DNA of 32,000 nucleotides from Halovivax gelatinilyticus (lineage in GTDB: Archaea > Halobacteriota > Halobacteria > Halobacteriales > Natrialbaceae), in assembly GCF_024300625.1 (NCBI RefSeq), contig NZ_CP101322.1, positions 43,992-75,991 of the forward strand, written 5' to 3'. Of the stretch, positions 1-26,483 are shown one piece after another. Numbering within the stretch: the stretch's first letter is position 1; each line of letters starts with the position of its first letter. Made by a program: the position numbers and the translations under genes. Below the pieces are notes generated by a model. That model made no database searches and was not told the origin of the DNA. It saw nothing but the letters and a program-made list of their open reading frames with translations.

Positions 1-2727
1 ACGTCGCTTCTCGAGGTTGGTATCGATATTCCTGCCATCAAGGTCATCAGCCAATACCGAGCGCCCTGGGAGATGTCCCAGTTCGTTCAGCGCATCGGAC
101 GCGCATCCCGTAAGGAAGGGAACGATGCTCACTTCTTAATCACACTCGGTGACGAAGCCGCTGACAGAAGTCTCTTCCACCGTGCAGGGAGCTTCCTAGA
201 TCCGGAGATTACTACACCACTCAATACTGACAATGAGATTCTGACCTGGATTCACAGTCAGCTCTACAAGGCTTTTCAAACTGTCTATCGGATTAGGAGT
301 GCAGTGACCACCGGTGGGTCGACTCAGCAACAAGAAAAATTCCTCGAGTACTTTCTCCGTCGGTCGGATGAAGAGTCGTTCCAAGCTTTCGGCCAGTTTA
401 TCGAGGAGCCCGGTACAGAACTCACTAGTCTTCTCGAACAGCGGCTCCCGATATCAGGGTCGTTGAACGACCTCGAGACGATCGATGCTGTCTACAGCAC
501 AGTGCTACAGGCGGTCCAAGACGATGCACTCCTGACCGATATCGCGACCCTCCTTGACGAACCGGTCACACGGTTCACACTCCAGACGGGAAGGCTCGAT
601 GATCTAGACGACCAGATGGAGATAGGTATCCGGATGACCATCCAGGAAGTTAGGAACACAATTAACCAAGCTGAACCGCAAAATACTGCCGCCAGGGGCG
701 CTGTCGATGCAATTTCAAATCAACTATCTGAGGCCGAAACTATTCTAGATGACGGGGGTCAAGACAGACGAGACCGATACGATGACTTAGATGAGCTCTT
801 CAACAATGTCCGAAACCAACTAAGCTCGGTGGCATCTGATTTTACGGGCGTTCACGAGTCATTCCCCTATCATCTACGTCTTGAAGACGCAAACAGCGCA
901 ATCCAGGAGGCTCGCGGAATTCGACGTGATGAACAACTCCAGGATAAACGCCAGAGATGGCGGCGCGCGTACTACGTCAAACGGGCACTACAGGAGTACT
1001 ATTGCTTCGTGAATCAGCGTTTCAGTGATAATCAGGTGTATGGGCACCTGATGGTGCGAGCGTTTAAAGCTCTCTTACGAGCAGTGTACTTCTACGACCG
1101 GGCAGTGAACCTCGAATCAACACGTGGAGAACTTGAACCCCCTCACTTTGTGCCGACATCGTATTTCGGTGAAGCCGGCGAGACGTTCTCGGTAGTGCCT
1201 GAAGATCAGGCAGGGGCCCCTGGTGAGGAAGATTCTATAGATGCACTGTATGTCATTCGATTTGAACAAAATGACGACGACGAAGAACAGTTGGATGCGT
1301 CGCTAACCAAACTCTTCTTCGAGTACGCGCCGTATATGTCGAAGTACCTTTCTGACCAGTCACTCCAAATGTTCAATCCGCAGGTAGAGGAAGCCCCAGT
1401 CGACGCCGACGCCGACTACTACTTCGACATCTCCGGATTGAGCACGGAGCCAGGAGAAGACTTGGTCACGCCGAATACCCTGCCCGTGAAACAAGTCGAG
1501 GATCAGTCCGGCGACCAGGCACGCGCGATTGTTTGGTACTGCAATGAATCCCTCTACGTTGGCCGCAATCGGTGGGACCACGGACCACACGGAGAGGATA
1601 CCATGGACTACGGTCAGCTCCACTCAGAGCCGCATATCGGCACGGCGTTCGAACCCGAAGAGAGACCCACTGACCAAATCAGTGTATCGTATATCGATGC
1701 TGACGTGAGTCTCGACGCAGTAACACTGACAATCACGCCGGCAACGCTCGTAGGCGACCCTTCTGCAGAGAGTCCTCCCTTCCGCACCGAACGAGACGCG
1801 CAGCGCGAATTACTGCTGGAGTTCGAGCAACCGCTTGGTTTTTCGCTTCACTCCCGAGGCGTCATCTGGGATATCGGGGATTTCGTTGACGAACTCCTCG
1901 AGGATGAGGAATTCGTAGAAAATTTTGAAAGCCACAATCCAGGGGCCGACATCGAAGATACCATCCATTTTACGGCTGCTCACTTCCTCGTAGAGGTCGT
2001 TGCGGACGTCAGTGGGGTCAACCAGGCACAGATGCTCTACGCCGTCTCTCCAGATGCGAATCAAGTGGCAGTGTTCGAGCATGCTGAAGGGGGACAAGGT
2101 ATCGTTGATCTCTTTGACGACGTACGTAATCGTCTCGAGCACGAGAAGATGCTGCGAACTATTAACCGGGTCGCGTCGAATCCGCAGTTGATCAACGGCT
2201 CGCTCTGGGCCGACAATGAGTTTGTCGTCGCCGTTCGTGCCGGGGACTGGGCGACCGTCGAAGAATTCGTCCGTCAGCGAGTGGTCGTACCGACCGAGTC
2301 CGTGGTCAATGACGTGATGCAAATGGTCCAGAATACGGTCGACCAACTGGACGAATTCGCTGATGTCACTGATACAACGCTGGAGGAAGCCTACGAAATT
2401 CGCCACGCTGCGGCCCGATATCAGTTCGAGGTTGGGATCCACGACCCAGTCGAGGACCTCGAAGACGAAACACCAGACAGCGTTCAAGCGGAGAACCTCC
2501 GGAATCTCATCGTCGAACCCGACGTAGACGACTGTGTTGAAAACTTACATCTCGCATATAGCATCGTCATGGACCAGGGGAATGTCCTCAGCTATCTCGT
2601 CCTCGAGCGGCTTCACGAGCACGTCGTAACAAAGACCGACAGCGACGACTGGGGGGACGAAGTACTGGACCGCGAGGCAATTCCTGGAGTGAATATTGAT
2701 GGTACAAACGTTTTCCATACGCTCTGA
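1..2727 (+). CDS. SF2 (DEAD/DEAH-type) helicase, C-terminal part only (5' end lies upstream of the window), with a DUF1998/MZB-like C-terminal domain
   Basis: Frame +1 is open from nt 1, with no stop before the ATG at 73. It reads TSLLEVGIDIPAIKVISQYRAPWEMSQFVQRIGRASR, which is helicase motifs V-VI (QRIGRAsR at 88-111). HFTAAHFLVEV...VAVFEHAEGGQGIVDLF (1966-2115) matches my memory of the DUF1998 signature (H-T/S-x-x-H ... D/E-x-x-x-GG-x-G). The protein is long and very acidic. Confidence 0.75.
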   Translation, partial: TSLLEVGIDIPAIKVISQYRAPWEMSQFVQRIGRASRKEGNDAHFLITLGDEAADRSLFHRAGSFLDPEITTPLNTDNEILTWIHSQLYKAFQTVYRIRSAVTTGGSTQQQEKFLEYFLRRSDEESFQAFGQFIEEPGTELTSLLEQRLPISGSLNDLETIDAVYSTVLQAVQDDALLTDIATLLDEPVTRFTLQTGRLDDLDDQMEIGIRMTIQEVRNTINQAEPQNTAARGAVDAISNQLSEAETILDDGGQDRRDRYDDLDELFNNVRNQLSSVASDFTGVHESFPYHLRLEDANSAIQEARGIRRDEQLQDKRQRWRRAYYVKRALQEYYCFVNQRFSDNQVYGHLMVRAFKALLRAVYFYDRAVNLESTRGELEPPHFVPTSYFGEAGETFSVVPEDQAGAPGEEDSIDALYVIRFEQNDDDEEQLDASLTKLFFEYAPYMSKYLSDQSLQMFNPQVEEAPVDADADYYFDISGLSTEPGEDLVTPNTLPVKQVEDQSGDQARAIVWYCNESLYVGRNRWDHGPHGEDTMDYGQLHSEPHIGTAFEPEERPTDQISVSYIDADVSLDAVTLTITPATLVGDPSAESPPFRTERDAQRELLLEFEQPLGFSLHSRGVIWDIGDFVDELLEDEEFVENFESHNPGADIEDTIHFTAAHFLVEVVADVSGVNQAQMLYAVSPDANQVAVFEHAEGGQGIVDLFDDVRNRLEHEKMLRTINRVASNPQLINGSLWADNEFVVAVRAGDWATVEEFVRQRVVVPTESVVNDVMQMVQNTVDQLDEFADVTDTTLEEAYEIRHAAARYQFEVGIHDPVEDLEDETPDSVQAENLRNLIVEPDVDDCVENLHLAYSIVMDQGNVLSYLVLERLHEHVVTKTDSDDWGDEVLDREAIPGVNIDGTNVFHTL

Positions 2728-3163
2728 CCAAATCGCCCGATATCTCGGATCGGCGTTTCTCAACGCGACCCGGATAGTCATCGTCTCACCCTGGGTGAGC
2801 GATATCAAGGTCAAGGTCCCAGAGACGGACCAAATTGACGACCGAGAGTTACTGCTCTCTCAAGCGGTGAACCAGTTCGACGTTAACGTGACATTCGTCG
2901 TTGACCCTGCTAATAATGCCCACAACCGGTTACGGGCACAAGCCCTCCTCCCTAAAGTTAGTAGCCATGCGACGATCGAGACTGTAGATAACCTTCATGC
3001 GAAAGCTATTGTCACGGACCAAATTCTCTATCAGGGTTCAGCCAACGTGACCTACCACGGTCTGAATGTCAACGTCGAATTATGTGATCTTCGAGAAAAC
3101 GAATACGAGGACGCAAACGACTTCTTGCGGGAACGAATCGGGCTCGAACTTGGCGAGTCCTAA
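2696..3163 (+). CDS. Phospholipase-D-family (single HKD) nuclease, Nuc/DrmC-like
   Basis: NLHAKAIVTDQILYQGSANVTYHG is a complete H-x-K-x4-D-x6-G-S-x-N motif at 2996-3046. There is one HKD copy in about 155 aa, as in dimeric PLD nucleases. The ORF overlaps the upstream helicase ORF by 32 nt, so the true start may be slightly downstream. Confidence 0.85.
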   Translation: MMVQTFSIRSDQIARYLGSAFLNATRIVIVSPWVSDIKVKVPETDQIDDRELLLSQAVNQFDVNVTFVVDPANNAHNRLRAQALLPKVSSHATIETVDNLHAKAIVTDQILYQGSANVTYHGLNVNVELCDLRENEYEDANDFLRERIGLELGES

Positions 3164-12535: not shown

Positions 12536-14542
12536 TTATTGGGTGTCCACCGGACTGGTCGCACGGTCGTCCAGGTAGTCCAATAATTCTTGAATGTTGT
12601 CATTCCTGAAAAACTCGGTGAGCTGTAATGCCTGGGGAGATTCAGGAAATACCACTCCTTGACCGTATTCGTCAAACGCGTCCTCGATAACTCGCCTGTA
12701 CGTTTTGCTCGTCACGTAACCAATAATCTCGTCGAATTGATCGCCGTAGCGTTCGAGGTACTGTGAGACGCGACCGGTGACCAATTCGATCTGATCGGTG
12801 TCCTCTTTCGCGAGAACGTAATCATACTCCAATATTGGCTGTTCTCGCTCGAACTCTTCGGGCACGGGTCCGTACATTCCCGAAATTGTAACTTTATGTA
12901 CGGCTTCGCTCAGAGACCCAAGTTTATCGAACAAGATTGAATGAGTCCGCGAACGCGAGTAGGGCTTTTGCTGGCTGCACGGGACAAATAGAAGGATGTC
13001 TTTCTCCCTAGGAGGCTCGTACGATTGGGTGCTAACGTTGAAATCGTTCGGACTATGTTTGAGCGAGATTTGACGCGTGCCAACGGATTCGTCGATTCCG
13101 GCACCCCACTTGGAGAGCTTCGACTGATCGCTCGCCAACGTTGAACCTGGGAGGAGATCGTACGCGCCACGGGACTCGAGTACGTTTTTAAGTCGTTTGT
13201 TTCGAAGTTGAGCCTGCTTGAGCCCGCGCTTGATGTCATCGTGTTCTCTTGCAAACTCAACAACGTACTCTAGCAGTCGTCCCTCTCGAATAGCCCCGCG
13301 GACGCGTCCGAGTTCCTCATTGTACACTTCGAAGTTGTGCCGAGCAAGGAGCGCATAGTAATCACTTTTGATATTTTTCCCGTTCTCTTTTCTACGCTGT
13401 CGTTGCTCGTAGCTCAGATCGGTGTTGAGTTCTTTGACCAACCGGTCATAACTCACACCCCCATCTGAACACAGGAGACAATTCGGGAGATCGCACGGAT
13501 AACTTCTGTCCGGTCCTAGGTACTGATCTAGATCAGATAGTTTATGAGTCGTCCATGTCTCAGGATGGAGATACTTTTTATACTGTGCAGTATGCATGTG
13601 GGTTGAACAGTCAAACGTATCGACACCAAGAAGGGAGAGCAGGCCAACCTGTTTTCCACCCACACCGAAAACGTGGAGGCCGATTTCGTCCGAACGGGCT
13701 TCCGGAATAGCGTCTTTTGCTCCCTGAACGATATCCACCAATACATCGATACTATCTCGAAGCGGAACGAGCGATCCTACGGCAAATCCTTGGAACGAAC
13801 TGTCGATATCGAGTTTGTCGACACGATCGAGAAAGTTCCCAACGTACCAATTGACCGTTTCGTAATCGTGTCCGTGAAGCGCGACATATACGCTCGGCTC
13901 GTCACCAGCCGCCTGCCGCTCTCGCAAGTGATCCGCTGCGCGGCTGTTGATCGGGAACTCATCGTCGAGGAGATTTGGTTTATCGAGAAGGCGGAGACAT
14001 TCCACTGCGCTATCTATACTCCGATTCATCCGCTCAACTTTCTCTTCTTCTTTAAGATTCGGTGGAATTGGATAATCGAGGGTCGCAACTATGTCGGCCC
14101 CAAAGTCGAGCTGTAGACCGAGTATGCTTTTTGGGTCCGTGTAAAGTCCCCACTCGTTTGGGACACCGCCCTTCTCTGGAGCCTCGCCAAATGTGTTGGA
14201 ATTCATCAGCTTGAAACCGCCAGAATCGATGAAGATGGGGGCGTCGAGACGGTTGAAGCGCTCGTGAAATGTCTTTGGTCTCCAAAAGTCATTCAGATTG
14301 TTCGGAGATACGCCGTAGTCGGTGAAGCTCATCGCCTGAAACATTATCCCTTGAAGATGCTCCTTGTCGATGAGCTTATCCCGCATTCGACGCCAGACAC
14401 CGCCGGACTTCTCAGTAGTACCGCCGATAAGATTGACGACCGGGAACAATGCAGGCGTCTCTACGGGGCCGTGCGTCACATCTAATTCCCCTAGGCGGCC
14501 AAAACCGTCATCACCCACCGTCTTCACCCGAAAGGACGCCAT
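12536..14542 (-). CDS. TGT-family paralog with a C-terminal ArcS-type (PC-x3-KPY) domain; ArcS-like but without a recognisable PUA domain
   Basis: N-terminal TGT core: ETPALFPVVN, IFIDSGGF, ALHGHDY, FAVGSLVP, LHVFGVGG..LGVDTFDCSTH. The zinc site is an unusual C-x4-C-x2-C (CDLPNCLLC, 13469-13495). At 12941-12982 the C-terminal domain reads PCSQQKPYSRSRTH, which is PC-x3-KPY-x2-S-x2-H, followed by VTISGMYGPVPEEFE..PILEYDY (12818-12892). Confidence 0.85.
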   Translation of the reverse strand: MASFRVKTVGDDGFGRLGELDVTHGPVETPALFPVVNLIGGTTEKSGGVWRRMRDKLIDKEHLQGIMFQAMSFTDYGVSPNNLNDFWRPKTFHERFNRLDAPIFIDSGGFKLMNSNTFGEAPEKGGVPNEWGLYTDPKSILGLQLDFGADIVATLDYPIPPNLKEEEKVERMNRSIDSAVECLRLLDKPNLLDDEFPINSRAADHLRERQAAGDEPSVYVALHGHDYETVNWYVGNFLDRVDKLDIDSSFQGFAVGSLVPLRDSIDVLVDIVQGAKDAIPEARSDEIGLHVFGVGGKQVGLLSLLGVDTFDCSTHMHTAQYKKYLHPETWTTHKLSDLDQYLGPDRSYPCDLPNCLLCSDGGVSYDRLVKELNTDLSYEQRQRRKENGKNIKSDYYALLARHNFEVYNEELGRVRGAIREGRLLEYVVEFAREHDDIKRGLKQAQLRNKRLKNVLESRGAYDLLPGSTLASDQSKLSKWGAGIDESVGTRQISLKHSPNDFNVSTQSYEPPREKDILLFVPCSQQKPYSRSRTHSILFDKLGSLSEAVHKVTISGMYGPVPEEFEREQPILEYDYVLAKEDTDQIELVTGRVSQYLERYGDQFDEIIGYVTSKTYRRVIEDAFDEYGQGVVFPESPQALQLTEFFRNDNIQELLDYLDDRATSPVDTQ

Positions 14543-14607: not shown

Positions 14608-15093
14608 CTAATCAGGATCCGTCACCGATTGGATTTGATCTGATATCTGGACAGTTGTGTACTCTGCGGCCTCAGTCCAGGAACTCTGCCATTCGTTTCC
14701 TTGTTTCGGCGGCTCCAGCGGAAATTCTACTGGATGATACGAGAGGTCGTCAATAGCCCCCGCTGCGATGGCTCCGACGAACTCCGCATTTTTCCGTTTC
14801 GATGAAACACCACCGCTAGCCAAGTCATAATAATTTGTGAATATTTGTGCGACGAGTACGATATCTACGTCAGTTCTTTCGTTGGTAAGATGACGGAAAA
14901 TCTTCGCAGAATTGTCGGCAGGATCAGCTCGCCTCCACTCCAATTCCAAGAGCACGAGCAGTTTGTCGTTTTCTCCACCGATGTCTACCGGTGTTCCGGC
15001 TAGATCATATTCAGTCTGCCATGACAAGCTAGTATTCGATTCACTGAGTCGGTTGTATATGTACGTCTGTACCTTCGAAGCAAATTCACCCAT
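14608..15093 (-). CDS. Small hypothetical protein, possible PD-(D/E)xK (restriction-endonuclease-like) fold
   Basis: The ORF sits between the GHKL ATPase and the ArcS-like gene. TPVDIGGENDKLLVLLELEWRR has the hydrophobic-D ... hydrophobic-E-x-E/K spacing of REase folds, without a clean K. The ATG at 15093 lies 5 nt after the upstream stop. The track's TTG at 15102 would overlap that stop. Confidence 0.5.
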   Translation of the reverse strand: MGEFASKVQTYIYNRLSESNTSLSWQTEYDLAGTPVDIGGENDKLLVLLELEWRRADPADNSAKIFRHLTNERTDVDIVLVAQIFTNYYDLASGGVSSKRKNAEFVGAIAAGAIDDLSYHPVEFPLEPPKQGNEWQSSWTEAAEYTTVQISDQIQSVTDPD

Positions 15094-15098
15094 GTCGA

Positions 15099-16664
15099 TC
15101 AATCGTCGGCGACGGCTCGCGGTGACATTGGTTCAATGTGGTGGCTGAGTGGCAATATCTCGACATAGGTAGGGTTCTCATCCCCGTAAAGTAGGCCGTT
15201 TTCCTCTAGATCAATCTCGATGTCTTCGCCGAGATACCCTTGCCGTTCGTATTCTCGTAACACCACCGGGTCCCCGTGATCCCAGCAAATTATGAGATCT
15301 ACTTCCTCGAACGTCAGCTCCTCATTGAAGTGATTTGTCAATGAACAGTGAACAGCCGCATTGCGAAGTTTCCCGTTCTGACGTGCAATCGCGTGTACGT
15401 CCGAATCCGGCTCGTAATCTTCGACAGAAATCTGTCCTGGTAAGGTATTCTCGTTCTCCCGTGCGAGCGTGAGTAGGACCTCAGTTCGATTCGATGGCTC
15501 ACCGGAGTCCCCCGATTCCACGCGCTCTCGTCGGAGCTTGAGTGAGGCACGGCGGTTCCGAGCTCGGCGTTTAATCTCCGCTTCTCGTCGGATTTCAAGA
15601 TATTCTTTGAACCACGGATCTTGTGCCACTTTCGATAGATGAAATTCGGTCGCTTCTTTGAGCGCCTGGAACACAGGGCTCGATTTATTTCGAATCGTTT
15701 CACGATTGGCTGATAATTCGATATCTTGGCAGTTCACAACAAAGAAGAAGTGAAGGAATTCATTGTCATGAGAGATTGCCTCGTTCAGCCGTTCAACCTT
15801 GATGTGATCCTTTGCAAGCCAGACACCGAACTGTGCGGAATGCTTTCCATAGGTAGGAAGCTCGTTTCGAGCGGCTTTCCCACCGACCATTCCAGTGATG
15901 TGGAGCGTCGTCGTGCCACCATCGTAATCGGCTTCGACCTCTGTCGGTCCGTAGTGTTTACACATTCGCTCGGCAGGGAAATCTGACGAGTAATCGGGCT
16001 CAAGTTGTTCGTTCGGGAACTCAAGTCGGTTCTTCGTCTCAACTTCCGGATATGAATCGTCTATTTCGTCACCAAGACGAACAGTGATGTCCATTTCGTG
16101 CTGATCGTCCTCGAACATGTGTGCCGTCGAGCCGGCGATAGTTTTCCACTTTAGATAATGTTCGATCTTATTATAAGTGAGTGATTCCGGATCGAATCCC
16201 TGACCGGATCGGAAATTGTGGATTCTGATCCTCGTTCCCTTGTGAAGATTGCTTACAGGTGTTTCAGTGACTTCGTACTCAGGAAGTACCCGGTTGTTAA
16301 GTTTTTTCCAAGGGTCACTCATCACCGCCCGGAGGTTGGTGCCATCATGGACGGTATTGACGACGATCTCATCGCTTTTGTAGAATATTTTCGTCCCATG
16401 ACCTTTGTACCCTATCGAATCCGTCTTGCGCGAATTCCCCAAATCGAAAAAGGATTCGAGGTCACGGAGGTCCATGCCGTCTCCATCGTCATCGATGATG
16501 ATGTCAGAGCCCATCTCTCGACTTTTAATCTCGATTTCAATATTTGAAGCATTTGCATCGTACGAGTTCGATAGCGATTCCCGGATTACCTCAAGCGGGT
16601 CCTCGAAGTCGCTCGCAATTTCGAGGAACTCGTTCACTTCGTTGACCTTTGGAGCTTTTTTCAT
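15099..16664 (-). CDS. GHKL (Bergerat-fold) ATPase, HATPase_c_3 / prokaryotic MORC-like
   Basis: IRESLSNSYDANAS is the N-box E-x3-N-x2-D-A, DDDGDGMD is D-x-G-x-G (both within 16476-16580), and GYKGHGTK is the G2 box. There is a basic coiled segment (REAEIKRRARNRRASLKLRRER). An ATGA overlap with the upstream TGT gene at 16661-16664 was checked. Confidence 0.85.
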   Translation of the reverse strand: MKKAPKVNEVNEFLEIASDFEDPLEVIRESLSNSYDANASNIEIEIKSREMGSDIIIDDDGDGMDLRDLESFFDLGNSRKTDSIGYKGHGTKIFYKSDEIVVNTVHDGTNLRAVMSDPWKKLNNRVLPEYEVTETPVSNLHKGTRIRIHNFRSGQGFDPESLTYNKIEHYLKWKTIAGSTAHMFEDDQHEMDITVRLGDEIDDSYPEVETKNRLEFPNEQLEPDYSSDFPAERMCKHYGPTEVEADYDGGTTTLHITGMVGGKAARNELPTYGKHSAQFGVWLAKDHIKVERLNEAISHDNEFLHFFFVVNCQDIELSANRETIRNKSSPVFQALKEATEFHLSKVAQDPWFKEYLEIRREAEIKRRARNRRASLKLRRERVESGDSGEPSNRTEVLLTLARENENTLPGQISVEDYEPDSDVHAIARQNGKLRNAAVHCSLTNHFNEELTFEEVDLIICWDHGDPVVLREYERQGYLGEDIEIDLEENGLLYGDENPTYVEILPLSHHIEPMSPRAVADD

Positions 16665-17908
16665 TGGAAGTACCCCCCGAGCGAGTGGTTAACTACTCGA
16701 TGAGCAGACTCTCGAGTTGGTTTATCTTGTGCAACAGTGCCTTCGATATACTCGACCAACGATGACGAATCACCTGATTTGACCCGTTGGCGAACCTCTT
16801 CGATCTCTCGTTTTTGAATGATTAAGTTGTGCATAGCTACCGGCCCCAACATGTCTTTTTTATATGGAGCATTTCCACGCATCCACCTTCGCATGTGCTG
16901 AGACGAGCATACTGGGCAATCACACTCGTCAAAATTCGCTTCATTAACGTTCACCGTCTCCATAAGTGATAGGAAATATCCACCGTTGATCGCATTTTGC
17001 AAGTACGTCGATGAATCGAAGGTGTCTACGCCAAGCGCAACAAGTAATGGGACGGCTCTGCTGGAAATTCCGAGAACGTGCAACGGTAATTTGTCGAAAC
17101 CCCAATCGTGTAGCACTTCGTGGCAATCGATTACAGCGTCGATTAGGGCCGACCGATTGTCCTTCATTGGTACGAGACTACCAAGGGCAATTCCGTCGAA
17201 AGACGACCGAAGCTTTTCCGCGCTCACATAGTCAGTTATCTCGGTGAGGAAAGCGTCCATCATCGAGTAGTTATATCCGTGTAAAGTGAGGTACCGGGCC
17301 CCGGTATACTCGTCAGACAGGTCAAGAAATATCTCGATGTTTTTTCCCGTTTTTCGGGCTTTTTCGAGCCGTTCCTCGTGAGTATCGGACGGCGTTATCG
17401 GGTGGTCGAGATTGACGATGATATCACCACCCATTCGTTTCTGTATCTCGAATACTTTCGCTTGATCGATATCCTCTTGGAAGTCGCTTCCATCCAGGCT
17501 TTCATTATTTAAGAATTTGAATCCACCAGAGTCTAGGAAGATAACTCCGTTAAAAGGTGAAAACACCTCTCGTTCTTTTATCGGTTCATAGACATAGTCG
17601 GCATATCGTTCTTTTGAGACGTTGTAGTCGGTGAGGGACGAAACGGAGGTCATGACCGCATCAAAGAATTTCGCGTATGCATCATCCCCCCCAATTCGGT
17701 CAGCTCCGATCATAAACTCCTTGACCGTTCGATGGATACCCCCGCCGTAAACACTATTCTCGGTACCGCCACCGTAAAAATTTACGACCGGGAATAGGTT
17801 TGGTGTTTCAATTACCGAGTCACCAATTGTCAGCTTACCAGCACGGGCGTCTCCCACCGTCTCCGAAACCTCAAAATTTGCCGAATAACTTGTCTTTGAA
17901 TATGACAT
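16661..17908 (-). CDS. Stand-alone TGT-family protein, DpdA-like (catalytic core only, no PUA or C-terminal tRNA-binding domains)
   Basis: ETPNLFPVVNFYGG, IFLDSGGF, LTLHGYNY, IALGSLVP, LHVLGISS..LGVDTFDSSTY. The zinc site is canonical: CDCPVC at 16907-16924 (checked) plus VAMHNL. The protein is 415 aa and ends shortly after the Zn subdomain. Confidence 0.85.
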   Translation of the reverse strand: MSYSKTSYSANFEVSETVGDARAGKLTIGDSVIETPNLFPVVNFYGGGTENSVYGGGIHRTVKEFMIGADRIGGDDAYAKFFDAVMTSVSSLTDYNVSKERYADYVYEPIKEREVFSPFNGVIFLDSGGFKFLNNESLDGSDFQEDIDQAKVFEIQKRMGGDIIVNLDHPITPSDTHEERLEKARKTGKNIEIFLDLSDEYTGARYLTLHGYNYSMMDAFLTEITDYVSAEKLRSSFDGIALGSLVPMKDNRSALIDAVIDCHEVLHDWGFDKLPLHVLGISSRAVPLLVALGVDTFDSSTYLQNAINGGYFLSLMETVNVNEANFDECDCPVCSSQHMRRWMRGNAPYKKDMLGPVAMHNLIIQKREIEEVRQRVKSGDSSSLVEYIEGTVAQDKPTRESAHRVVNHSLGGYFQ

Positions 17909-18369
17909 TAGTTAACCTTCCTAATACCCGACTCTTCGCCTTGAAGGAACTGTTTGAGCGAGCGCCCCTTCAAACCGATACCATCTCCCTGTACCAGGTA
18001 TGTCTCAACATCTAGTCCTTCATCAAATCCGTCAATGGCCCTTCGATACTCTTTACCAGCGTTAATGACAACTCGTTTATATTGTTTCTCGGTGACCCGA
18101 TTTTTCAGCTCATTCCTTACTTTTGGTCCGAGCTCTTTTGCCCTGTGAGAGTCCATTCTTCGGTCATACGGAGAGATTGGTTCTTCAGGATCGATGATAC
18201 CGTGTTTCGCAGATAGAATACATAAGTCACAATCAGAATATCCGCCTCCCTCTCCCATCGATTTTTTGATAATTTTGAAGAAGTATCCAGAATACAGTTC
18301 GAGGGCAGAGACGGGTTTATCCGGCTCGATTTTGGACTTCGAGCAAGATTGAACGAGCAGCGTCGACAT
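17908..18369 (-). CDS. Small C-x3-K protein, paralogous to the C-terminal ArcS-type domain of the 668-aa protein (DUF5591/DUF6884-like, tentative)
   Basis: LLVQSCSKSK (18331-18345) aligns with LLFVPCSQQK of the ArcS-like protein. CILSAKHGIIDPEEPISPYD (18163-18219) aligns with VTISGMYGPVPEEFE..PILEYD. A TAATG stop/start overlap joins it to the DpdA-like gene at 17908. Confidence 0.6.
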   Translation of the reverse strand: MSTLLVQSCSKSKIEPDKPVSALELYSGYFFKIIKKSMGEGGGYSDCDLCILSAKHGIIDPEEPISPYDRRMDSHRAKELGPKVRNELKNRVTEKQYKRVVINAGKEYRRAIDGFDEGLDVETYLVQGDGIGLKGRSLKQFLQGEESGIRKVN

Positions 18370-22052: not shown

Positions 22053-25000
22053 ATGGTTGATACCGATGATCGGCCGGCAGTCACACTAAATCCGAGCGGT
22101 CTCGGCCAATACATCAGTTATTCTGGGTGTCCGCGATTTTTCAGACTGAAGTTTTTCGACCACGGCCTCGTGAATAAGCGAAACTGGTACGATCCGAACG
22201 CAGGTAGTGACCTTTTCGCAGAACTTGGGTTAGCCTACGAAGAAGAACAATTGAAAACACTCAGTGAGGATGCATCCCGAGTCATCGGGGACACTGACAG
22301 CGATGGTGATGTGATCCCATATGATGAGACGTGGGAAGACAATACGGGATCACACGGCGACATAGAAACGCAGTGGAAAGGTGGAGTCCGTGAACAGTTG
22401 ATCAATCTGATCGAGACCCTCGCAGATAGCGACCATGACGAGTTGGATGGACCCGTCGTGTTGTTCCAGACACCCATGTTTGGACGGATCGGAGTCTGGG
22501 ACATTGCTGGTATTGCCGATCTCATCACACTGGAACCGCTTCCGGAGAGTCGCGGCGTCCGAACTAGAGTTCTGGAGGTCAAGACGTCCTGGAAGGACAA
22601 GACATCTCAGCAGATTCAATCGACGATCTATAGTTTACTATTAAGCACGGTGGTTTCCGAGTGTGGCGTCGATCATGAACCCGTCGCCACAGTAGTTAAT
22701 CGTGAGGCAGACCTCCGCGAACATCCCCTGCCGGAACTCCCGCCGATCGATCTTCCCTCGCGGACCGCGGAGGTGAAACGCCTGTTGAAACAGGATGGTG
22801 AACTACACCAGTTAGCGCGAAAGTCGTTTGACGAGGTCGGGTATCGCCTCGAACGAAAATGCGACGGGTGCCCGTATAACGGGATTTGTTTCACGAAAGC
22901 AATTGAATCACGCGATCCAGCACTGTTGAACCTCACACAGGGGAATCAGGAACGGCTTCGAGTGCAGGGCATAGACTCGCTCGCGGGGTTGACCGACCTG
23001 TTTGAGCGAGAAGAGGGGACGAAACCGTATGATTACGACGAACTCCCAGTACGTGATGAGACAATCGTTCGTGCCTTAGAGAGTGAGGGAACCCTTTCGA
23101 ATCGCCTCGACGAAATCGTTCAACGGGCTCAGGTACTCCGTGGAGAACTCGATCCGTCGTACGACTCGTTCGGCGGCGTAGAGTACCTACGTGGCAGTGG
23201 GAACGGCAATCTCCCTGACGACGATCCGCATCCACGATTGCCCGGAGGGGCGTGTGAGCGCAACGAACTGATCCGGGTGTACCTGTACGTCCAGCACGAT
23301 CCCGTACGTGACCGGCTGGCGCTCTTGGCTGCTCGCATCAATTGTGACAAGACCGATGCGACGACCGTCGTTGAATTTAGCGAGCAACTCCCAGCGGCGA
23401 AAGACGATAGCCTCGACGCGGAAGCGAAGCTACTGGAAGCGTTTTTCGAACGGCTAATCAAAGCAATCCAGGGCATAAAAGCCGAGTTTGGCTCGAGTCC
23501 AGACCAGGGCTATGTCCATCTGTACACGTATTCCGCCCACGAACGGGACGCACTCATGGAGGGTGTTCAACGACAACCGTCCGTCTTTGGAAGCGCCGCA
23601 GTACGTGATCTTCTGGGACTACGAGAGGGACTCGACCAACCGATGGTGTCGGTCGTGCATAACGATATTACGAGTCGCTTGGCGTTACAATACCCGGGGA
23701 CAGGGCTCATCCAGACAGTCGAGCAAATGCAGGCGTTCGCCGACGAGTCCTATCCTCGACGCTGGTTTTCTGCTACCGATTGGAAAGCGACGATTGCTGG
23801 CGACGAAGTTGACCTTCGGGATGTATTCAGGACTGGGTTGTTCGAGGGGAAGCGAGCGTACGTCGAGGAGGGCAACTCGATCAGATTGCTCCTTGGTGAT
23901 CCAGGCGATCCGGATCGGGAGCCAGATGGCTTCTACCCACTGTACAATCGATTTGGAAATCAGATTCCCCTGGAGTACCTGTGGGCTGCTCGCGGTAAGT
24001 TAGACGATGATGTGGAACTCGGGACGGGCAGTTCGTCGCTCTCAACATATCGGTACTACGACGGGGAGGGCTCCAAACCGATCGGAGCCCCAGAAGTGAA
24101 AGCACTCGCACAGCGACTGACGGAAGCTCTCGAGCACGTCGAACGGGCGATCGCGTACAAGAACTGGCAAATCGATAAGCAACCACTCGATTTGAGCCGA
24201 CTGCCAGCCTTCTCGCTTGAAAATATTGAACTGAACCGTGCCTGCCAAGAGTATCTTGATCTGGAACACACGACGAACTATCGTGACTGTCTCGACCATT
24301 ACCTCAAACCGCCTCGAAAGCGCATGCAGACCGGCGATTCGACGATTTTCCGCGTCACGAACGTCGAACCTGCTGGCCAGTGGGATATCCGCGTCGAGGG
24401 CGATCTTCTCTATGACGAGTTGTTCCGAAATCCGGATCAGGTGATCGATAGTTGCCGGATCAGCGGCTCGGACGACGGCGGCTCCGGAAGCTGGCGAGTA
24501 ATGTCGAAACTCGAGCGCAACGGCAGGGAATTCAGACAAGTCAATGCGACATACCCGCGGTATCTGGCAAATTCGATCAAGGCATCCGTCGAGTCGTTCG
24601 ATCGAACCGGCAAAACGATCACGGTGAGTGCATCGACCCACGGTGGGTTCGGCCGCAGCCGGTACCTTGAGTGGCACCGGAGTGCAACGATGGAACCCGA
24701 GGAAGCCGACGGAGAGGATTACACGACGCTGGTCTCTGAAGGTGACCTCTTTGTGCTTGATCCGTACGCGGATTCTTACCCCGCGCTCAGAGCCTACGAA
24801 GCGCTCGAGCGGACGGAGTCGAACGCGTTGTACCACCAGTTGAACCGCGCGTTCCAGGACGGCGAAACTGAGCAGTTCGACCGGCAGTTTTGTTCGCCGA
24901 CCGCTGTTGCGGACTTCATCGAAACGTTCGAGGATGCGACGGGTGCGCGTCCCCGCGGGAACCAGGCGGAGTTCGTTAAGGAAGTTGACCACAGCGTCTC

Positions 25001-26483
25001 CGTTCTGCAAGGGCCGCCAGGAACCGGCAAGACCAGTTTTACGCTTGCACCGGCGGTGTTAGCTCGACTCGCAGCGAGCGAAGACGAGGGGGATCGGTTA
25101 CTCACGGTTGTGACTGCGCCGTCGCACACTGCTGTTGATGAAGCGATGGAGGACATCGTCACGAACTGGGCCGACCTCACTGAGAGTTCAGCAACCACTG
25201 CGGCAACCGAGTTTGTTCGGGTTCGTGCCGGTTCTTCCACCGATGTCCGTGAGGCCGTCGACGAGCACGTACGGTTTGTCGATTATTACGATACAACTGA
25301 TGTGGTCGAGATGACCGACGCGCTTCGTCCACACGTGACGCCGGACGGTCGGGCGACGAATCATCTCGTCGTGTTCACCACGCCGACATCGCTTCGGGGT
25401 GTGATTAACAAATGCTCGGGTGAGTTATTCGCTCTCGACGACGCTGAAGCGGTGATGGATGCCGGGATTTCGTTCGTCGATTTGCTGGCGATCGACGAGG
25501 CGAGTATGCTCGATCTGCCGGCGACGCTCCTCTCGAGTGCGTTCCTCAAGGACGATGCACAAACGCTCCTCATCGGTGACCACCGGCAAATGGAGCCAGT
25601 TCAACAACACGACTGGGAGGGGGAGGATCGCCGAACCATCGAAGAGAATGTGCCGTTCATGTCGGTGTTGAACTTCGTCCGATTCCTCAGAGGCGACCTT
25701 GAGGAAACCGATTTTGCATTCGCCCAATCACCCGATATCGGTGACGCGATTCCGATCACACGCCTCGACCGAACCTATCGGCTACACACTCGAGTCGCTG
25801 ACTTGCTCACTGACCTGGTGTACACTGACGACGGGATAAAACTCAAATCAAGCCAGACAGCGACGATTGATCACGTTCACGCCGGTACGGACGGCGTTGC
25901 AGCCGCGATGAATCCGCAAGCTCCGGCTGCCCTTGTTATTCATGACGAGGACGAGAGCCAAGACGCTAACCGAACCGAGGTCGCTATTGTAGCCGCGTTG
26001 TTGAGCGCGTTGGATGATCCACAACCAACGGAGACTGGAATTGTGACGCCACACAATGCCCAGAAAGGACGACTCAACCAGCAGTTTAATGGAACCGCAA
26101 CGATCGATACCGTCGAGCGGTTTCAGGGTGGGGAACGCGATGTCATGGTTATCTCGGCCACTGCAAGCGACCCGGACTATGTCCGAAGCGAAGCCGAATT
26201 TCTGTTAAATCCAAACCGATTGAACGTCGCCATGTCCCGAATGAAGAAGAAACTCGTCATCGTTGCAAGCGAATCCGTGTTTGAGGTGACACCACCGAAT
26301 GCCGATGAGTTTGACCAAACGTTGATATGGAAGCGCTTGTACGACGCCCTTGGCGTCACCGACAATAGCCCAGCGACGTCAGTTTGGGAGGGAGATCTTG
26401 GTGAGTTTTGTCCAAGTAACGTTGATATTCCCCGCGGAAAATCCGGCACGAATATCGATGTCTACGCCTTGGAATCGGAGTAA
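22053..26483 (+). CDS. Three-module protein: N-terminal Cas4/RecB-type Fe-S nuclease, central RNase-H-like (TM0106-type) region, C-terminal Upf1/Dna2-like SF1B helicase
   Basis: Nuclease (about 22128-22889): SGCPRFFRLKFF, DIAGIADLITLE, RVLEVKTS, QIQSTIYSLLL (QxxxY), CDGCPYNGIC. Middle: VYLYVQHDP and YVHLYTYSAHERDAL. Helicase: VLQGPPGTGKTSF (from 25011), AIDEASML, IGDHRQMEPV, VERFQGGERDVMVIS, LNVAMSRMKKKLVIV. Confidence 0.85.
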   Translation: MVDTDDRPAVTLNPSGLGQYISYSGCPRFFRLKFFDHGLVNKRNWYDPNAGSDLFAELGLAYEEEQLKTLSEDASRVIGDTDSDGDVIPYDETWEDNTGSHGDIETQWKGGVREQLINLIETLADSDHDELDGPVVLFQTPMFGRIGVWDIAGIADLITLEPLPESRGVRTRVLEVKTSWKDKTSQQIQSTIYSLLLSTVVSECGVDHEPVATVVNREADLREHPLPELPPIDLPSRTAEVKRLLKQDGELHQLARKSFDEVGYRLERKCDGCPYNGICFTKAIESRDPALLNLTQGNQERLRVQGIDSLAGLTDLFEREEGTKPYDYDELPVRDETIVRALESEGTLSNRLDEIVQRAQVLRGELDPSYDSFGGVEYLRGSGNGNLPDDDPHPRLPGGACERNELIRVYLYVQHDPVRDRLALLAARINCDKTDATTVVEFSEQLPAAKDDSLDAEAKLLEAFFERLIKAIQGIKAEFGSSPDQGYVHLYTYSAHERDALMEGVQRQPSVFGSAAVRDLLGLREGLDQPMVSVVHNDITSRLALQYPGTGLIQTVEQMQAFADESYPRRWFSATDWKATIAGDEVDLRDVFRTGLFEGKRAYVEEGNSIRLLLGDPGDPDREPDGFYPLYNRFGNQIPLEYLWAARGKLDDDVELGTGSSSLSTYRYYDGEGSKPIGAPEVKALAQRLTEALEHVERAIAYKNWQIDKQPLDLSRLPAFSLENIELNRACQEYLDLEHTTNYRDCLDHYLKPPRKRMQTGDSTIFRVTNVEPAGQWDIRVEGDLLYDELFRNPDQVIDSCRISGSDDGGSGSWRVMSKLERNGREFRQVNATYPRYLANSIKASVESFDRTGKTITVSASTHGGFGRSRYLEWHRSATMEPEEADGEDYTTLVSEGDLFVLDPYADSYPALRAYEALERTESNALYHQLNRAFQDGETEQFDRQFCSPTAVADFIETFEDATGARPRGNQAEFVKEVDHSVSVLQGPPGTGKTSFTLAPAVLARLAASEDEGDRLLTVVTAPSHTAVDEAMEDIVTNWADLTESSATTAATEFVRVRAGSSTDVREAVDEHVRFVDYYDTTDVVEMTDALRPHVTPDGRATNHLVVFTTPTSLRGVINKCSGELFALDDAEAVMDAGISFVDLLAIDEASMLDLPATLLSSAFLKDDAQTLLIGDHRQMEPVQQHDWEGEDRRTIEENVPFMSVLNFVRFLRGDLEETDFAFAQSPDIGDAIPITRLDRTYRLHTRVADLLTDLVYTDDGIKLKSSQTATIDHVHAGTDGVAAAMNPQAPAALVIHDEDESQDANRTEVAIVAALLSALDDPQPTETGIVTPHNAQKGRLNQQFNGTATIDTVERFQGGERDVMVISATASDPDYVRSEAEFLLNPNRLNVAMSRMKKKLVIVASESVFEVTPPNADEFDQTLIWKRLYDALGVTDNSPATSVWEGDLGEFCPSNVDIPRGKSGTNIDVYALESE

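What the first reader, a model, noticed from the sequence alone, without database searches (positions are those of the whole stretch)
12818..12982. Exact ArcS catalytic motif PC-x3-KPY-x2-S-x2-H in a TGT paralog that lacks a PUA domain, with no RaSEA-like gene nearby
SEEN: 12941-12982 back-translates to P-C-S-Q-Q-K-P-Y-S-R-S-R-T-H. About 110 aa follow the second conserved block (VTISGMYGPVPEEFE..PILEYDY), and they contain nothing resembling a PUA domain. The only radical-SAM gene in the window is a typical QueE.
ESTABLISHED (from memory): This motif was defined for archaeosine synthase ArcS (Phillips 2010). ArcS attaches lysine to the nitrile of preQ0-tRNA, and a separate radical-SAM enzyme, RaSEA, then releases archaeosine (Yokogawa 2019).
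INFERENCE: If the substrate here is preQ0 in DNA, the end product could be deoxy-archaeosine. Without RaSEA it could instead be a retained preQ0-lysine-type amidine adduct in DNA, which would be a new DNA base.
Basis: partly seen in the sequence, partly recalled or inferred. Interest (0 to 1): 0.8.

Follow-up and report, generated by a model that had tools for sequence, protein, structure and literature searches.

The report
TGT–ArcS-core fusion in defence island
A salt-loving archaeon carries a gene that fuses a complete guanine-swapping enzyme to the catalytic core of archaeosine synthase, without the tRNA-binding end, inside a DNA-modification and restriction island; it most likely writes an archaeosine-type base into the cell's own DNA, a chemistry so far shown only for viruses.

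Summary
ORF 12536-14542 (-) encodes 668 aa, and P-C-S-Q-Q-K-P-Y-S-R-S-R-T-H sits at 12941-12982. Pfam, profile-profile alignment and two structure models find no PUA or C2 domain. QueE is the only radical-SAM gene in the window and in 20 related loci.

It is not a trimmed ArcS. It belongs to a separate family made of a full TGT catalytic domain plus DUF5591. Both catalytic Asp residues, the substrate Asp and most zinc ligands are conserved. Canonical ArcS keeps only half a TGT domain and always has PUA.

In 14 of 18 other haloarchaeal loci, and in the window, the gene lies within 10 kb of a DpdA-like TGT, a DpdC-like DUF6884 protein and a GHKL ATPase. preQ0 synthesis genes, or a preQ0 transporter, and helicase-nuclease genes are often nearby. 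This is a Dpd-like system resembling the published BRIGADE type. In distant relatives the fusion is the only TGT, once directly after a ParB-like gene, which is the DpdA position.

Best reading: a DNA transglycosylase/amidine synthase that marks host DNA, most likely with 2'-deoxyarchaeosine. PUA-less ArcS cores that make dG+ without RaSEA are already published (viral ArcS2), so missing RaSEA does not imply a new base. A retained lysine adduct is not excluded.

The parts
12536..14542 (-). TGT-DUF5591 fusion protein, 668 aa (the finding)
   Evidence: ORF and translation. Pfam TGT 13-435 and DUF5591 505-632. 100% identical to an NCBI 'DUF5591 domain-containing protein [Halovivax gelatinilyticus]'.
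13238..14506 (-). N-terminal complete TGT catalytic domain (residues 13-435). It carries D106 (DSGGF), D156 (LDYP), D311 (GVDTFDC), C350/C355/C358 and H402.
   Evidence: Pfam covers profile positions 2-356 of 357. The residues are invariant or nearly so in 30 homologs and in 41 distant type-A proteins. Alignments to arcTGT 1IQ8 and bacterial TGT. Foldseek top hits are 1iq8 and Z. mobilis TGT.
13052..13144 (-). Predicted disordered linker (residues 467-497)
   Evidence: pLDDT below 50 in the AF2 model.
12647..13030 (-). DUF5591 / ArcS C1-type catalytic core (residues 505-632)
   Evidence: Pfam E 6e-21. PDB sequence hit 2Q07/AF0587 at E 3e-10. Domain model pLDDT 89, and its only significant fold match is 2q07.
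12941..12982 (-). Motif P521-C-S-Q-Q-K-P-Y-S-R-S-R-T-H534 (PC-x3-KPY-x2-S-x2-H)
   Evidence: Conservation.
14608..15102 (-). 164-aa protein of unknown family. Its start overlaps the GHKL stop codon by 4 nt.
   Evidence: No Pfam, NCBIfam or PADLOC hit. Homologs in L015, L017, L019 and L020.
15099..16664 (-). GHKL (HATPase_c_3, MORC/MutL-like) ATPase, 521 aa; proposed functional analog of DpdB
   Evidence: Pfam and NCBIfam. Conserved next to the TGTs in 14 of 18 other haloarchaeal loci, in L028, and beside a DUF5591 protein in L022.
16661..17908 (-). Second TGT, 415 aa, DpdA-like; keeps DSGGF, VDTFDS, CDCPVC and H
   Evidence: Pfam TGT. Weak DpdA hits in PADLOC (8e-7) and NCBIfam (1e-6). Alignment to 1IQ8.
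17908..18369 (-). DUF6884 protein, 153 aa; short DpdC/YaaA-like
   Evidence: Pfam DUF6884 at 61.5 bits. PADLOC DpdC at E 0.0015. DpdC is described as DUF6884 in PMC12235509 and as DUF328 in PMC12839542.
18584..21135 (-). preQ0 synthesis genes: QueC 18584-19282, FolE 19275-19898, QueE 19874-20665, QueD 20650-21135
   Evidence: Pfam and NCBIfam. The same set lies adjacent in L007, L015, L019 and L020.
22053..26483 (+). 1476-aa PD-(D/E)XK + SF1 helicase (DNA2-like); candidate restriction component
   Evidence: Pfam. PADLOC MkoA/DpdJ-like hits. Homologs in L002 and L018.
1..3163 (+). 3' part of a DEAD-box helicase gene (runs off the window start, ends at 2727) followed by a small PLD-family nuclease (2696-3163); candidate restriction pair
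   Evidence: Helicase_C hit at residues 1-38 of the frame-0 translation. Homology to the 1345-aa helicase of L005. PLDc_2 hit. The pair is conserved in L002, L005, L017, L019 and L020.

Best explanation
The gene encodes the DNA-modifying 'writer' of a Dpd-like (BRIGADE-like) hypermodification-restriction island. One polypeptide joins a complete, apparently active tRNA-guanine-transglycosylase-type domain to the catalytic core of archaeosine synthase (DUF5591). The C2 and PUA tRNA-binding domains are absent.

Proposed mechanism:
1. preQ0 is made by the adjacent FolE/QueD/QueE/QueC genes.
2. preQ0 is exchanged for guanine in double-stranded DNA by the TGT domain of this protein and/or by the neighbouring DpdA-like TGT. 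The GHKL ATPase would play the role that the ParB-like ATPase DpdB plays in bacteria.
3. The flipped-out 7-cyano-7-deazaguanine is held in the TGT-type pocket.
4. The conserved Cys/Lys/Tyr/Ser/His motif of the DUF5591 domain converts the nitrile into an amidine. The most likely product is 2'-deoxyarchaeosine (dG+), made with ammonia or an amide donor.
5. The mark labels host DNA as self for the linked helicase-nuclease genes, and amidine formation also blocks reversal of the base exchange.

Shown here: the architecture, residue conservation, family separation from ArcS, and gene linkage. Taken from the literature: DpdA/B/C chemistry, and ArcS2 giving dG+. Inferred: DNA as the substrate, the identity of the product, the role of the GHKL ATPase, and the division of labour between the two TGTs and the DpdC-like protein.
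For: (1) Architecture. Pfam finds a full-length TGT plus DUF5591 and nothing else. The AF2 models show a TGT barrel, a disordered linker and one alpha/beta domain. The C-domain matches only 2Q07.

(2) Catalytic equipment is kept under divergence. In the 109 close homologs of at least 640 aa, DSGGF is present in 108, GxDxFD[CS] in 108, LD[YF]P in 109 and PC-x3-KPY-x2-S in 109. The same Asp residues, the zinc Cys/His and the motif are invariant or nearly so in 41 type-A proteins that are only about 27-47% identical.

(3) It is distinct from canonical ArcS.
- The ArcS equivalog NF040592 scores 112.9 bits against a cut-off of 440.
- Canonical ArcS appear only at E about 1e-11 or weaker in the DUF5591 search, and all 33 scanned have PUA; none of 41 type-A proteins does.
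- hhalign leaves type-A columns 1-254 and ArcS columns 428-612 unaligned.
- The proteins best matching the canonical (type B) ArcS profile include many that NCBI names 'archaeosine synthase subunit alpha'.

(4) Linkage.
- The DUF6884 + TGT + GHKL triad lies within 10 kb in 14 of 18 other haloarchaeal loci, and in the window.
- preQ0 synthesis genes are adjacent in the window and in 4 of those loci. Vut_1 (the YhhQ-family preQ0 transporter) is adjacent in L005, L021, L023 and L026.
- Helicase, PLD, DNA2-like or YprA-like genes are nearby.

(5) It occupies the DpdA position. L023 reads ParB_N - TGT-DUF5591 - Vut_1. L021 has TGT-DUF5591 with a DEAD helicase and Vut_1 on a Mu-like element, and no other TGT. 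L022 pairs a DUF5591 protein with a GHKL ATPase.

(6) It looks like an accessory gene. It occurs on plasmids, in two copies in L002 and L027, and at 45-51% GC next to 61% GC neighbours.

(7) Literature.
- DpdA needs the ATPase DpdB to insert preQ0, and DpdC then converts it (PMC10164549).
- Viral PUA-less ArcS2 with DpdA2 gives dG+ in E. coli (PMC10516641).
- T. kodakarensis ArcS accepts the bare preQ0 nucleoside, and amidine formation blocks the reverse exchange (PMC11298593).
Against: - There is no biochemical or DNA mass-spectrometry evidence for this organism.
- Absence of PUA alone does not exclude tRNA. [quoted passage not shown]
- PADLOC and NCBIfam DpdA models do not hit this protein, and they hit the 415-aa TGT only weakly.
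- The module already has a DpdA-like TGT and a DpdC-like protein, so the fusion's own contribution is not resolved.
- T. kodakarensis ArcS is inactive without RaSEA and uses lysine.
- The dG+ yield of nt-1 ArcS2 in E. coli was tiny (4-7 per 1e6 nt).
- The third zinc Cys is variable, and two homologs lack all three Cys.
- One distant family member (L006) has no defence context.
- I could not check that the Halovivax genome has a separate canonical ArcS and RaSEA.
Confidence: 0.55

Rival explanations
1. Same DNA substrate, but the end product is a retained amino-acid amidine adduct such as 2'-deoxy-preQ0-lysine, because no RaSEA is available to cleave it.
For: ArcS from T. kodakarensis, T. acidophilum and M. 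acetivorans transfers lysine and needs RaSEA to finish G+. No RaSEA-like radical-SAM gene lies in the window or in 20 related loci. In Cui 2023 Table 3, adding ArcS2 removed about 900-1600 dPreQ0 per 1e6 nt but produced only 4-7 dG+, so most of the product is unaccounted for.
Against: dG+ was the product detected for the only PUA-less core tested, in a host without RaSEA. M. jannaschii ArcS makes G+ directly. The host's own RaSEA could act in trans. The second conserved block differs between type A (SG-x-YGPVP ... YDY-x-L) and canonical ArcS (TSPLG-x-VPRELE ... YDIPVTG-x-W), so donor specificity cannot be transferred from one to the other. The missing dPreQ0 could equally reflect depletion of the free preQ0 pool.
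Confidence: 0.12
2. The protein works on the free base or nucleotide pool. It would convert preQ0 to the G+ base, or to another derivative, and the neighbouring DpdA-like TGT would then insert that into DNA.
For: T. kodakarensis ArcS accepts the preQ0 nucleoside and the 5'-monophosphate. Loss of dPreQ0 on ArcS2 co-expression fits depletion of the pool. A separate DpdA-like TGT is present in most haloarchaeal loci.
Against: Both transglycosylase Asp residues are invariant across the family, which argues for nucleic-acid base exchange by the fusion itself. In L021 and L023 it is the only TGT in the locus.
Confidence: 0.1
3. It is an RNA enzyme: a compact bifunctional arcTGT/ArcS that modifies tRNA or another RNA, carried on mobile elements.
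For: Its closest solved and curated relatives are tRNA enzymes, namely arcTGT 1IQ8 and TIGR00432. PUA is reported as dispensable for arcTGT (reference cited). L006 has no defence neighbours.
Against: The gene is persistently linked to helicase-nucleases, ParB or GHKL ATPases and a DpdC-like gene. Both the C2 and PUA tRNA-binding domains are missing. Its distribution is patchy and often on plasmids.
Confidence: 0.08
4. It is not a writer of a simple base mark. Instead it is a sensor, or a conjugating enzyme that links a 7-deazaguanine (in DNA or free) to a protein lysine through an amidine bond, by analogy with deazaguanylation in type IV CBASS.
For: ArcS chemistry joins a lysine amine to the nitrile. 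In type IV CBASS, the TGT-family protein Cap10 binds a protein-linked 7-deazaguanine (bioRxiv 10.1101/2025.04.06.647259).
Against: No CD-NTase or obvious target protein is conserved nearby. In that system conjugation is carried out by a QueC-like enzyme, not by DUF5591. The neighbourhood resembles Dpd, not CBASS.
Confidence: 0.05

Closest known systems
Canonical archaeosine synthase ArcS ('archaeosine synthase subunit alpha', NF040592)
   Same: It shares the DUF5591/C1 catalytic core with the PC-x3-KPY-x2-S-x2-H motif, the second half of the TGT fold (GxDxFD, HN) and a preQ0-derived substrate.
   Different: Canonical ArcS lacks the first half of the TGT barrel, including DSGGF, and always carries C2 and/or PUA (33 of 33 scanned). 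It works on tRNA G15 and partners with RaSEA. The window protein has a full TGT domain and no C2 or PUA. It scores 113 bits against a cut-off of 440, and it sits in a DNA-defence island.
Viral ArcS2 (Cui et al. 2023, PMC10516641): Vibrio phage nt-1, Sulfolobus virus STSV2
   Same: It is a PUA-less DUF5591 core encoded next to a DNA transglycosylase (DpdA). It is predicted, and for nt-1 shown, to turn DNA-linked or pool preQ0 into dG+ without RaSEA.
   Different: ArcS2 is a stand-alone protein of about 185 aa from viruses. Here the core is fused to a complete TGT in a cellular genome and linked to restriction genes. Sequence similarity to STSV2 ArcS2 is weak (28% identity, E 2e-3), and nt-1 ArcS2 is not detected.
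Bacterial Dpd system: DpdA (TGT), DpdB (ParB-like ATPase), DpdC (DUF328/DUF6884), DpdD-K
   Same: A TGT-family enzyme, an ATPase and a nitrile-converting enzyme sit next to preQ0 genes and helicase or PLD restriction genes. The logic is self-marking with a 7-deazaguanine.
   Different: A GHKL ATPase takes the place of DpdB. The DpdC-like protein is half the usual length. There is an extra TGT fused to an ArcS core, which predicts an amidine (dG+) rather than, or in addition to, the amide dADG. The TGTs resemble arcTGT more than bacterial DpdA.
[quoted passage not shown]
   Same: These are haloarchaea-only Dpd-like systems with a 7-deazaguanine cluster. [quoted passage not shown] Related loci L001, L003, L004, L011, L013 and L016 carry large helicases with the C-terminal Cys cluster; L003 and L004 also have the Pfam MZB domain.
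   Different: The held text of the preprint defines the systems by their YprA helicases and does not discuss the TGT-DUF5591 protein. No YprA/MZB helicase was detected inside this window.
Archaeal tRNA-guanine transglycosylase arcTGT (PDB 1IQ8)
   Same: It is the best solved match for the N-terminal domain. It shares the catalytic Asp pair, the GxxVP preQ0-type pocket and the zinc subdomain.
   Different: arcTGT continues into C1, C2 and PUA, which bind tRNA. Here the C-terminal part is the ArcS-type Rossmann-like core, and the zinc motif spacing is C-x4-C-x2-C rather than C-x-C-x2-C.

Membership tests
Canonical ArcS (archaeosine synthase subunit alpha) | C1/DUF5591 domain with the PC-x3-KPY-x2-S-x2-H motif | tested here: met
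   Pfam DUF5591 at E 6e-21. The motif is exact at residues 521-534.
Canonical ArcS (archaeosine synthase subunit alpha) | C-terminal C2 and PUA tRNA-binding domains | tested here: not met
   No PUA or TGT_C2 hit. PUA is found in 33 of 33 canonical ArcS and in 0 of 41 type-A proteins. hhalign ends at ArcS column 427 of 612. Only 36 residues follow the end of DUF5591. The models show no beta-barrel.
Canonical ArcS (archaeosine synthase subunit alpha) | Passes the curated equivalog model NF040592 | tested here: not met
   112.9 bits against a cut-off of 440. The alternative model NF053620 scores 53 bits against 600.
Canonical ArcS (archaeosine synthase subunit alpha) | Reduced N-terminal domain (second half of the TGT fold only) | tested here: not met
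   The window protein covers TGT profile positions 2-356. The first canonical ArcS scanned (P0211) covers only 197-354.
Canonical ArcS (archaeosine synthase subunit alpha) | Works with the radical-SAM partner RaSEA; is the organism's housekeeping tRNA G+ enzyme | not testable with these tools
   There is no RaSEA-like gene in the window or in 20 related loci, but the rest of the Halovivax genome could not be read. A profile search for canonical ArcS returned no haloarchaeal sequence in its top 120.
Viral ArcS2 | DUF5591 core without PUA, encoded beside a DNA transglycosylase | tested here: met
.
Viral ArcS2 | Stand-alone small protein of a virus | tested here: not met
   This is a 668-aa fusion encoded on a 3.7-Mb cellular contig. 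tblastn against phage genomes, even at a relaxed E-value limit of 1, gives only weak hits.
Viral ArcS2 | Produces dG+ in DNA | not testable with these tools
   This needs LC-MS of DNA.
DpdA-type DNA 7-deazaguanine transglycosylase | TGT fold with the catalytic Asp pair, substrate Asp and zinc site | tested here: met
   D106, D156, D311 and H402 are invariant. C350 and C355 are kept in at least 90% of homologs, and C358 is variable.
DpdA-type DNA 7-deazaguanine transglycosylase | Matches curated DpdA models | tested here: not met
   The fusion has no PADLOC or NCBIfam DpdA hit. The neighbouring 415-aa TGT hits only weakly (E 8e-7 and 1e-6, far below the cut-off).
DpdA-type DNA 7-deazaguanine transglycosylase | Encoded with a partner ATPase and preQ0 supply genes in a DNA-defence context | tested here: met
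   A GHKL ATPase is present in the window and in 14 of 18 other haloarchaeal loci. A ParB_N protein is upstream in L023. Que genes or Vut_1 are adjacent.
BRIGADE / Dpd-like hypermodification-restriction system | 7-deazaguanine biosynthesis and insertion cluster in a halophilic archaeon | tested here: met
.
BRIGADE / Dpd-like hypermodification-restriction system | Small PLD nuclease and DNA2-like helicase-nuclease (type I) | tested here: met
   PLDc_2 at 2696-3163. PD-(D/E)XK plus SF1 helicase at 22053-26483.
BRIGADE / Dpd-like hypermodification-restriction system | YprA-family helicase(s) with the OB-CON-DUF1998/MZB module | tested here: inconclusive
   No MZB hit in the window. The helicase at 1-2727 is cut by the window edge and shows only Helicase_C. 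MZB helicases are present in related loci L003 and L004.

The most novel reading that the evidence does not exclude
The family does not stop at dG+. Lacking RaSEA, the fused ArcS core leaves an amino-acid (lysine-type) amidine adduct of 7-deazaguanine in cellular genomic DNA, or uses a protein lysine as the amine and so forms a nucleobase-protein or DNA-protein conjugate. Either would be a DNA modification not yet described, serving as the self-mark of a haloarchaeal restriction system.
Probability: 0.15. Interest if true: 0.85.

Novelty: new variant of a known kind. Interest (0 to 1): 0.55.

Why it matters
If the reading holds, archaeosine-type bases are written into cellular chromosomes as an epigenetic self-mark, and not only into tRNA and phage DNA. 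In the papers I could search, dG+ is reported only in viruses.

The fusion would put base exchange and nitrile-to-amidine conversion in one protein. That makes a compact two-step DNA writer, paired with an ATPase that is either ParB-like or GHKL. Such a protein is a convenient handle for three questions: how TGT enzymes were retargeted from tRNA to double-stranded DNA, what chemistry the ArcS core performs without RaSEA, and what the Dpd-like/BRIGADE restriction machinery actually reads.

It also flags an open product balance in the published ArcS2 experiment.

Tried and rejected
- **Cryptic PUA.** Rejected by Pfam, by hhalign against a canonical ArcS profile, and by two AF2 models with Foldseek.
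- **'It is simply the host ArcS.'** Rejected at family level by the equivalog score, the architecture, the plasmid and island location, and gene duplication. The direct check failed: I could not retrieve a haloarchaeal canonical ArcS. It was absent from the top 150 of the DUF5591 search, from plasmids and from the top 120 of a canonical-ArcS profile search. The single genome-contig scan did not return the Halovivax genome.
- **RaSEA hidden nearby.** A CxxxCxxC scan of all ORFs of at least 150 aa in the window and 20 loci found only QueE homologs and helicase zinc clusters. The scan would miss a radical-SAM protein with a non-canonical cluster.
- **Similarity of the 415-aa TGT to halovirus DpdA4.** No phage hit at E 1e-5.
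- **Papers.** Phillips 2010 is not held. Searches for DUF5591, DUF6884, ArcS2 and deoxyarchaeosine found no paper describing this fusion. The BRIGADE preprint's text and held supplements do not mention TGT, ArcS or DUF5591.
- **Tools left unused.** I did not use the third protein-database search or the metagenome scan, because neither could be aimed at the Halovivax genome.
Full report
**1.
The ORF at 12536-14542 on the minus strand encodes 668 aa. Residues 521-534 read PCSQQKPYSRSRTH and map exactly to 12941-12982. The second block, VTISGMYGPVPEEFEREQPILEYDY, is residues 551-575 (12818-12892). Pfam assigns a full-length TGT domain (residues 13-435, profile positions 2-356 of 357, E 5.5e-27) and a DUF5591 domain (505-632, E 6e-21), and nothing else. 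The protein is 100% identical to an NCBI entry named 'DUF5591 domain-containing protein [Halovivax gelatinilyticus]' on a 3.7-Mb contig. Among 109 close homologs of at least 640 aa, the strict motif is present in 104, and the remaining 5 differ only by the last H->Q. The motif is therefore a conserved family feature and not a chance match. Two small corrections apply. Ninety-three residues, not about 110, follow Y575. The QueE is QueE by best hit and by context, but it scores below the NCBIfam equivalog cut-offs.

**2. PUA is absent.**
Four independent checks agree.
- There is no Pfam PUA or TGT_C2 hit. The same search finds PUA in 33 of 33 canonical ArcS and in 0 of 41 proteins with the window's architecture.
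- Profile-profile alignment (hhalign) of the haloarchaeal family against the canonical ArcS profile aligns columns 255-633 with ArcS columns 108-427 of 612. The ArcS C2+PUA part has no counterpart.
- The full-length AF2 model (pLDDT 79.5) shows a TGT barrel, a disordered linker at 467-497 and one alpha/beta domain at 498-662.
- A separate model of residues 498-668 (pLDDT 89.3, pTM 0.87) has a single significant PDB match, 2Q07/AF0587. That entry matches over 151 alignment columns, corresponding to its DUF5591 part.

**3. No RaSEA-like gene is nearby.**
The only Radical_SAM hit in the window is QueE (19874-20665), which is embedded in FolE-QueD-QueE-QueC. I scanned every ORF of at least 150 aa in the window and in 20 related loci for CxxxCxxC. 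The scan found only QueE homologs and the C-terminal zinc clusters of large helicases.

**4. The protein is not a trimmed ArcS.**
I searched 1.84 billion representative proteins with residues 480-668. The hits fall into two architectures, separated by how far the motif lies from the C-terminus.
- Type A has the motif mostly about 140-180 residues from the end. It has a full TGT domain and no PUA.
- Type B has the motif about 270-300 residues from the end. In the one member shown (P0211) only the second half of the TGT profile is matched, and all 33 members have PUA.

Many of the best matches to the type B profile are named 'archaeosine synthase subunit alpha' by NCBI. Type B proteins appear only at E about 1e-11 or weaker, whereas type A relatives reach 1e-45. 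The window protein scores 112.9 bits against the ArcS equivalog NF040592, whose cut-off is 440.

What type A has and ArcS lacks is the first half of the TGT barrel. The key residues are mapped through the alignments; their roles are established knowledge for Z. mobilis TGT and arcTGT.
- DSGGF contains D106, the equivalent of Z. mobilis D102 and P. horikoshii D95.
- LDYP contains D156, the substrate-binding Asp.
- GVDTFDC contains D311, the equivalent of the D280/D249 nucleophile.

These residues are invariant in 30 haloarchaeal homologs. D106 and D156 are also invariant, and D311 at least 90% conserved, in 41 type-A proteins that share only about 27-47% identity. In those proteins the three zinc Cys are also at least 90% conserved and the His is invariant. 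Selection has therefore kept a working transglycosylase site and an ArcS-type site in one chain.

**5. Genomic context.**
The minus-strand genes run in this order: QueD, QueE, FolE, QueC, DUF6884, a 415-aa TGT, a GHKL ATPase, a 164-aa ORF, the TGT-DUF5591 fusion, then an AddB-like and an AddA-like gene. Several adjacent pairs overlap by 1-25 nt at their ends, and only 65 nt separate the 164-aa ORF from the fusion.
- The 415-aa TGT keeps all catalytic and zinc residues. It gives weak DpdA hits.
- The DUF6884 protein is a short relative of DpdC. DpdC is described as DUF6884 in PMC12235509 and as DUF328 in PMC12839542.
- On the plus strand lie a DNA2-like PD-(D/E)XK + SF1 helicase (22053-26483) and, at the window start, the 3' part of a DEAD-box helicase followed by a small PLD nuclease.

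In 18 distinct haloarchaeal loci from plasmids, genomes and assemblies, the DUF6884-TGT-GHKL triad lies within 10 kb of the fusion in 14. Que genes are adjacent in 4, the helicase-PLD pair in 5, and the DNA2-like gene in 2. The module has 45-51% GC, against 61% for the AddAB-like genes beside it. It occurs on megaplasmids, and L002 and L027 each carry two copies. All of this points to a mobile accessory system.

**6. Distant type-A relatives show which role the fusion plays.**
- L023 reads ParB_N protein, then TGT-DUF5591, then Vut_1 (the YhhQ-family preQ0 transporter). That is the bacterial DpdB-DpdA arrangement with the fusion in the DpdA position.
- L021 has the fusion, a 1343-aa DEAD helicase and Vut_1 on a Mu-like element, with no other TGT.
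- L022 pairs a DUF5591 protein with a GHKL ATPase next to an AIPR gene.
- L026 has Vut_1, QueC, an HTH protein, the fusion and a large AAA protein.
- L028 repeats the haloarchaeal triad among McrB, SNF2, SMC and Dnd-associated genes.
- Only L006 lacks such neighbours.

**7. What the literature adds.**
- DpdA exchanges guanine for preQ0 in DNA only with the ATPase DpdB, and DpdC then converts dPreQ0 to dADG (PMC10164549).
- Phage and virus 'ArcS2' proteins are the DUF5591 core alone, without PUA. Vibrio phage nt-1 DpdA2 plus ArcS2 gives dG+ in E. coli (PMC10516641).
- T. kodakarensis ArcS transfers lysine, needs RaSEA, accepts even the preQ0 nucleoside, and its product cannot be exchanged back by ArcTGT. 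M. jannaschii ArcS makes G+ directly with NH4+/Asn/Gln (PMC11298593).
- A 2025 preprint names haloarchaea-specific Dpd-like systems BRIGADE. [quoted passage not shown] Its held text and supplements do not mention TGT, ArcS or DUF5591.
- No held paper describes the TGT-DUF5591 fusion.

**8. Best explanation (confidence about 0.55).**
The protein is a DNA-directed transglycosylase/amidine synthase and the writer of a Dpd-like self-marking system. preQ0 from the adjacent pathway is placed into DNA by the fusion and/or by the DpdA-like TGT, with the GHKL ATPase standing in for DpdB. The DUF5591 motif then converts the nitrile to an amidine, most likely dG+. That product would also lock the base against reverse exchange. 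The linked helicase-nucleases would attack unmarked DNA. The architecture, conservation and linkage are shown here. The substrate, the product and the division of labour among the two TGTs and the DpdC-like protein are inferred.

**9. Rival explanations.**
- A retained lysine-type adduct is possible, because no RaSEA is linked. The published ArcS2 experiment also leaves about 99% of the lost dPreQ0 unaccounted for. However, the only measured product of a PUA-less core is dG+.
- Action on the free base pool, action on RNA (PUA is reportedly dispensable for arcTGT), and a sensor or protein-conjugation role (Cap10 precedent) are each less consistent with the conserved catalytic Asp pair and the Dpd-like neighbourhoods.

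**10. Novelty and limits.**
The chemistry and the idea of PUA-less ArcS cores on DNA are known, and so are Dpd-like systems in haloarchaea. What appears undescribed is the widespread cellular family that fuses a complete TGT to the ArcS core and occupies the DpdA position. It comes with the prediction of dG+, or a related amidine, in cellular chromosomes. I rate it a new variant of a known kind and moderately interesting. The main gap is that I could not confirm a separate canonical ArcS and RaSEA in the Halovivax genome, and no tool here can identify the product.

Noticed in passing
window 5324-12444 (-): An AddA-like protein (UvrD helicase + PD-(D/E)XK, 1229 aa) and an AddB-like protein (1144 aa) lie directly downstream of the fusion. 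Their GC is 61%, against 45-51% for the TGT module. The pair is absent from all related loci examined, and its relation to the system is unclear.
   Followed up: partly
window 1-3163 (+): The window begins inside a DEAD-box helicase gene: frame 0 is open from base 1 and shows the motif QRIGRASR. A 155-aa PLD-family nuclease follows, overlapping the helicase end. The same helicase-PLD pair recurs in L002, L005, L017, L019 and L020.
   Followed up: partly
window 14608-15102 (-): A 164-aa ORF with no family in Pfam, NCBIfam or PADLOC has a start that overlaps the GHKL ATPase stop by 4 nt. Homologs (48-66% identity) occur only in L015, L017, L019 and L020. A 'PVD...ELEW' stretch might be a degenerate PD-(D/E)xK motif; I did not test this.
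   Followed up: partly
L023 2017-5909: An AT-rich contig, probably bacterial, carries a compact ParB_N - TGT-DUF5591 - Vut_1 (the YhhQ-family preQ0 transporter) operon. This looks like a minimal DNA-modification module with the fusion in the DpdA position.
   Followed up: partly
L002 14001-18700 and L027 1240-9252: Two TGT-DUF5591 genes occur in one locus, on the Haladaptatus plasmid (673 and 654 aa) and on a metagenome contig (668 and 743 aa). This suggests paralogs with different specificities.
   Followed up: no
window 13466-13495 (residues 350-358) and homologs P0065, P0071: The zinc motif is C-x4-C-x2-C rather than the arcTGT C-x-C-x2-C. The third Cys is replaced by K, N, R or H in several homologs, and two homologs lack all three Cys while keeping both catalytic Asp residues.
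   Followed up: partly
distant type-A proteins, e.g. P0149, P0186, P0183, P0192: Subgroups carry motif variants: AC-x3-KPY-x2-S-x-HQ, and a terminal H replaced by F or Y. The last His of the 'ArcS motif' is therefore not universal in the PUA-less family.
   Followed up: no
literature: PMC10516641 Table 3: Co-expressing nt-1 ArcS2 with DpdA2 lowered dPreQ0 from 926-1607 to 0-11 per 1e6 nt but produced only 4-7 dG+. The fate of most of the preQ0 is unexplained.
   Followed up: no
window 3508-5204 (-): A stretch of 43-44% GC holds two ORFs (323 and 156 aa) with no Pfam family. The 323-aa ORF has only weak PADLOC PDC-M34B hits.
   Followed up: no
window 27120-31090: An AAA_14/DUF4143 ATPase (minus strand) and a 718-aa VWA-domain protein with a weak pPIWI_RE_REase-like C-terminus (plus strand) lie beyond the DNA2-like gene. 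This may be another defence module.
   Followed up: no
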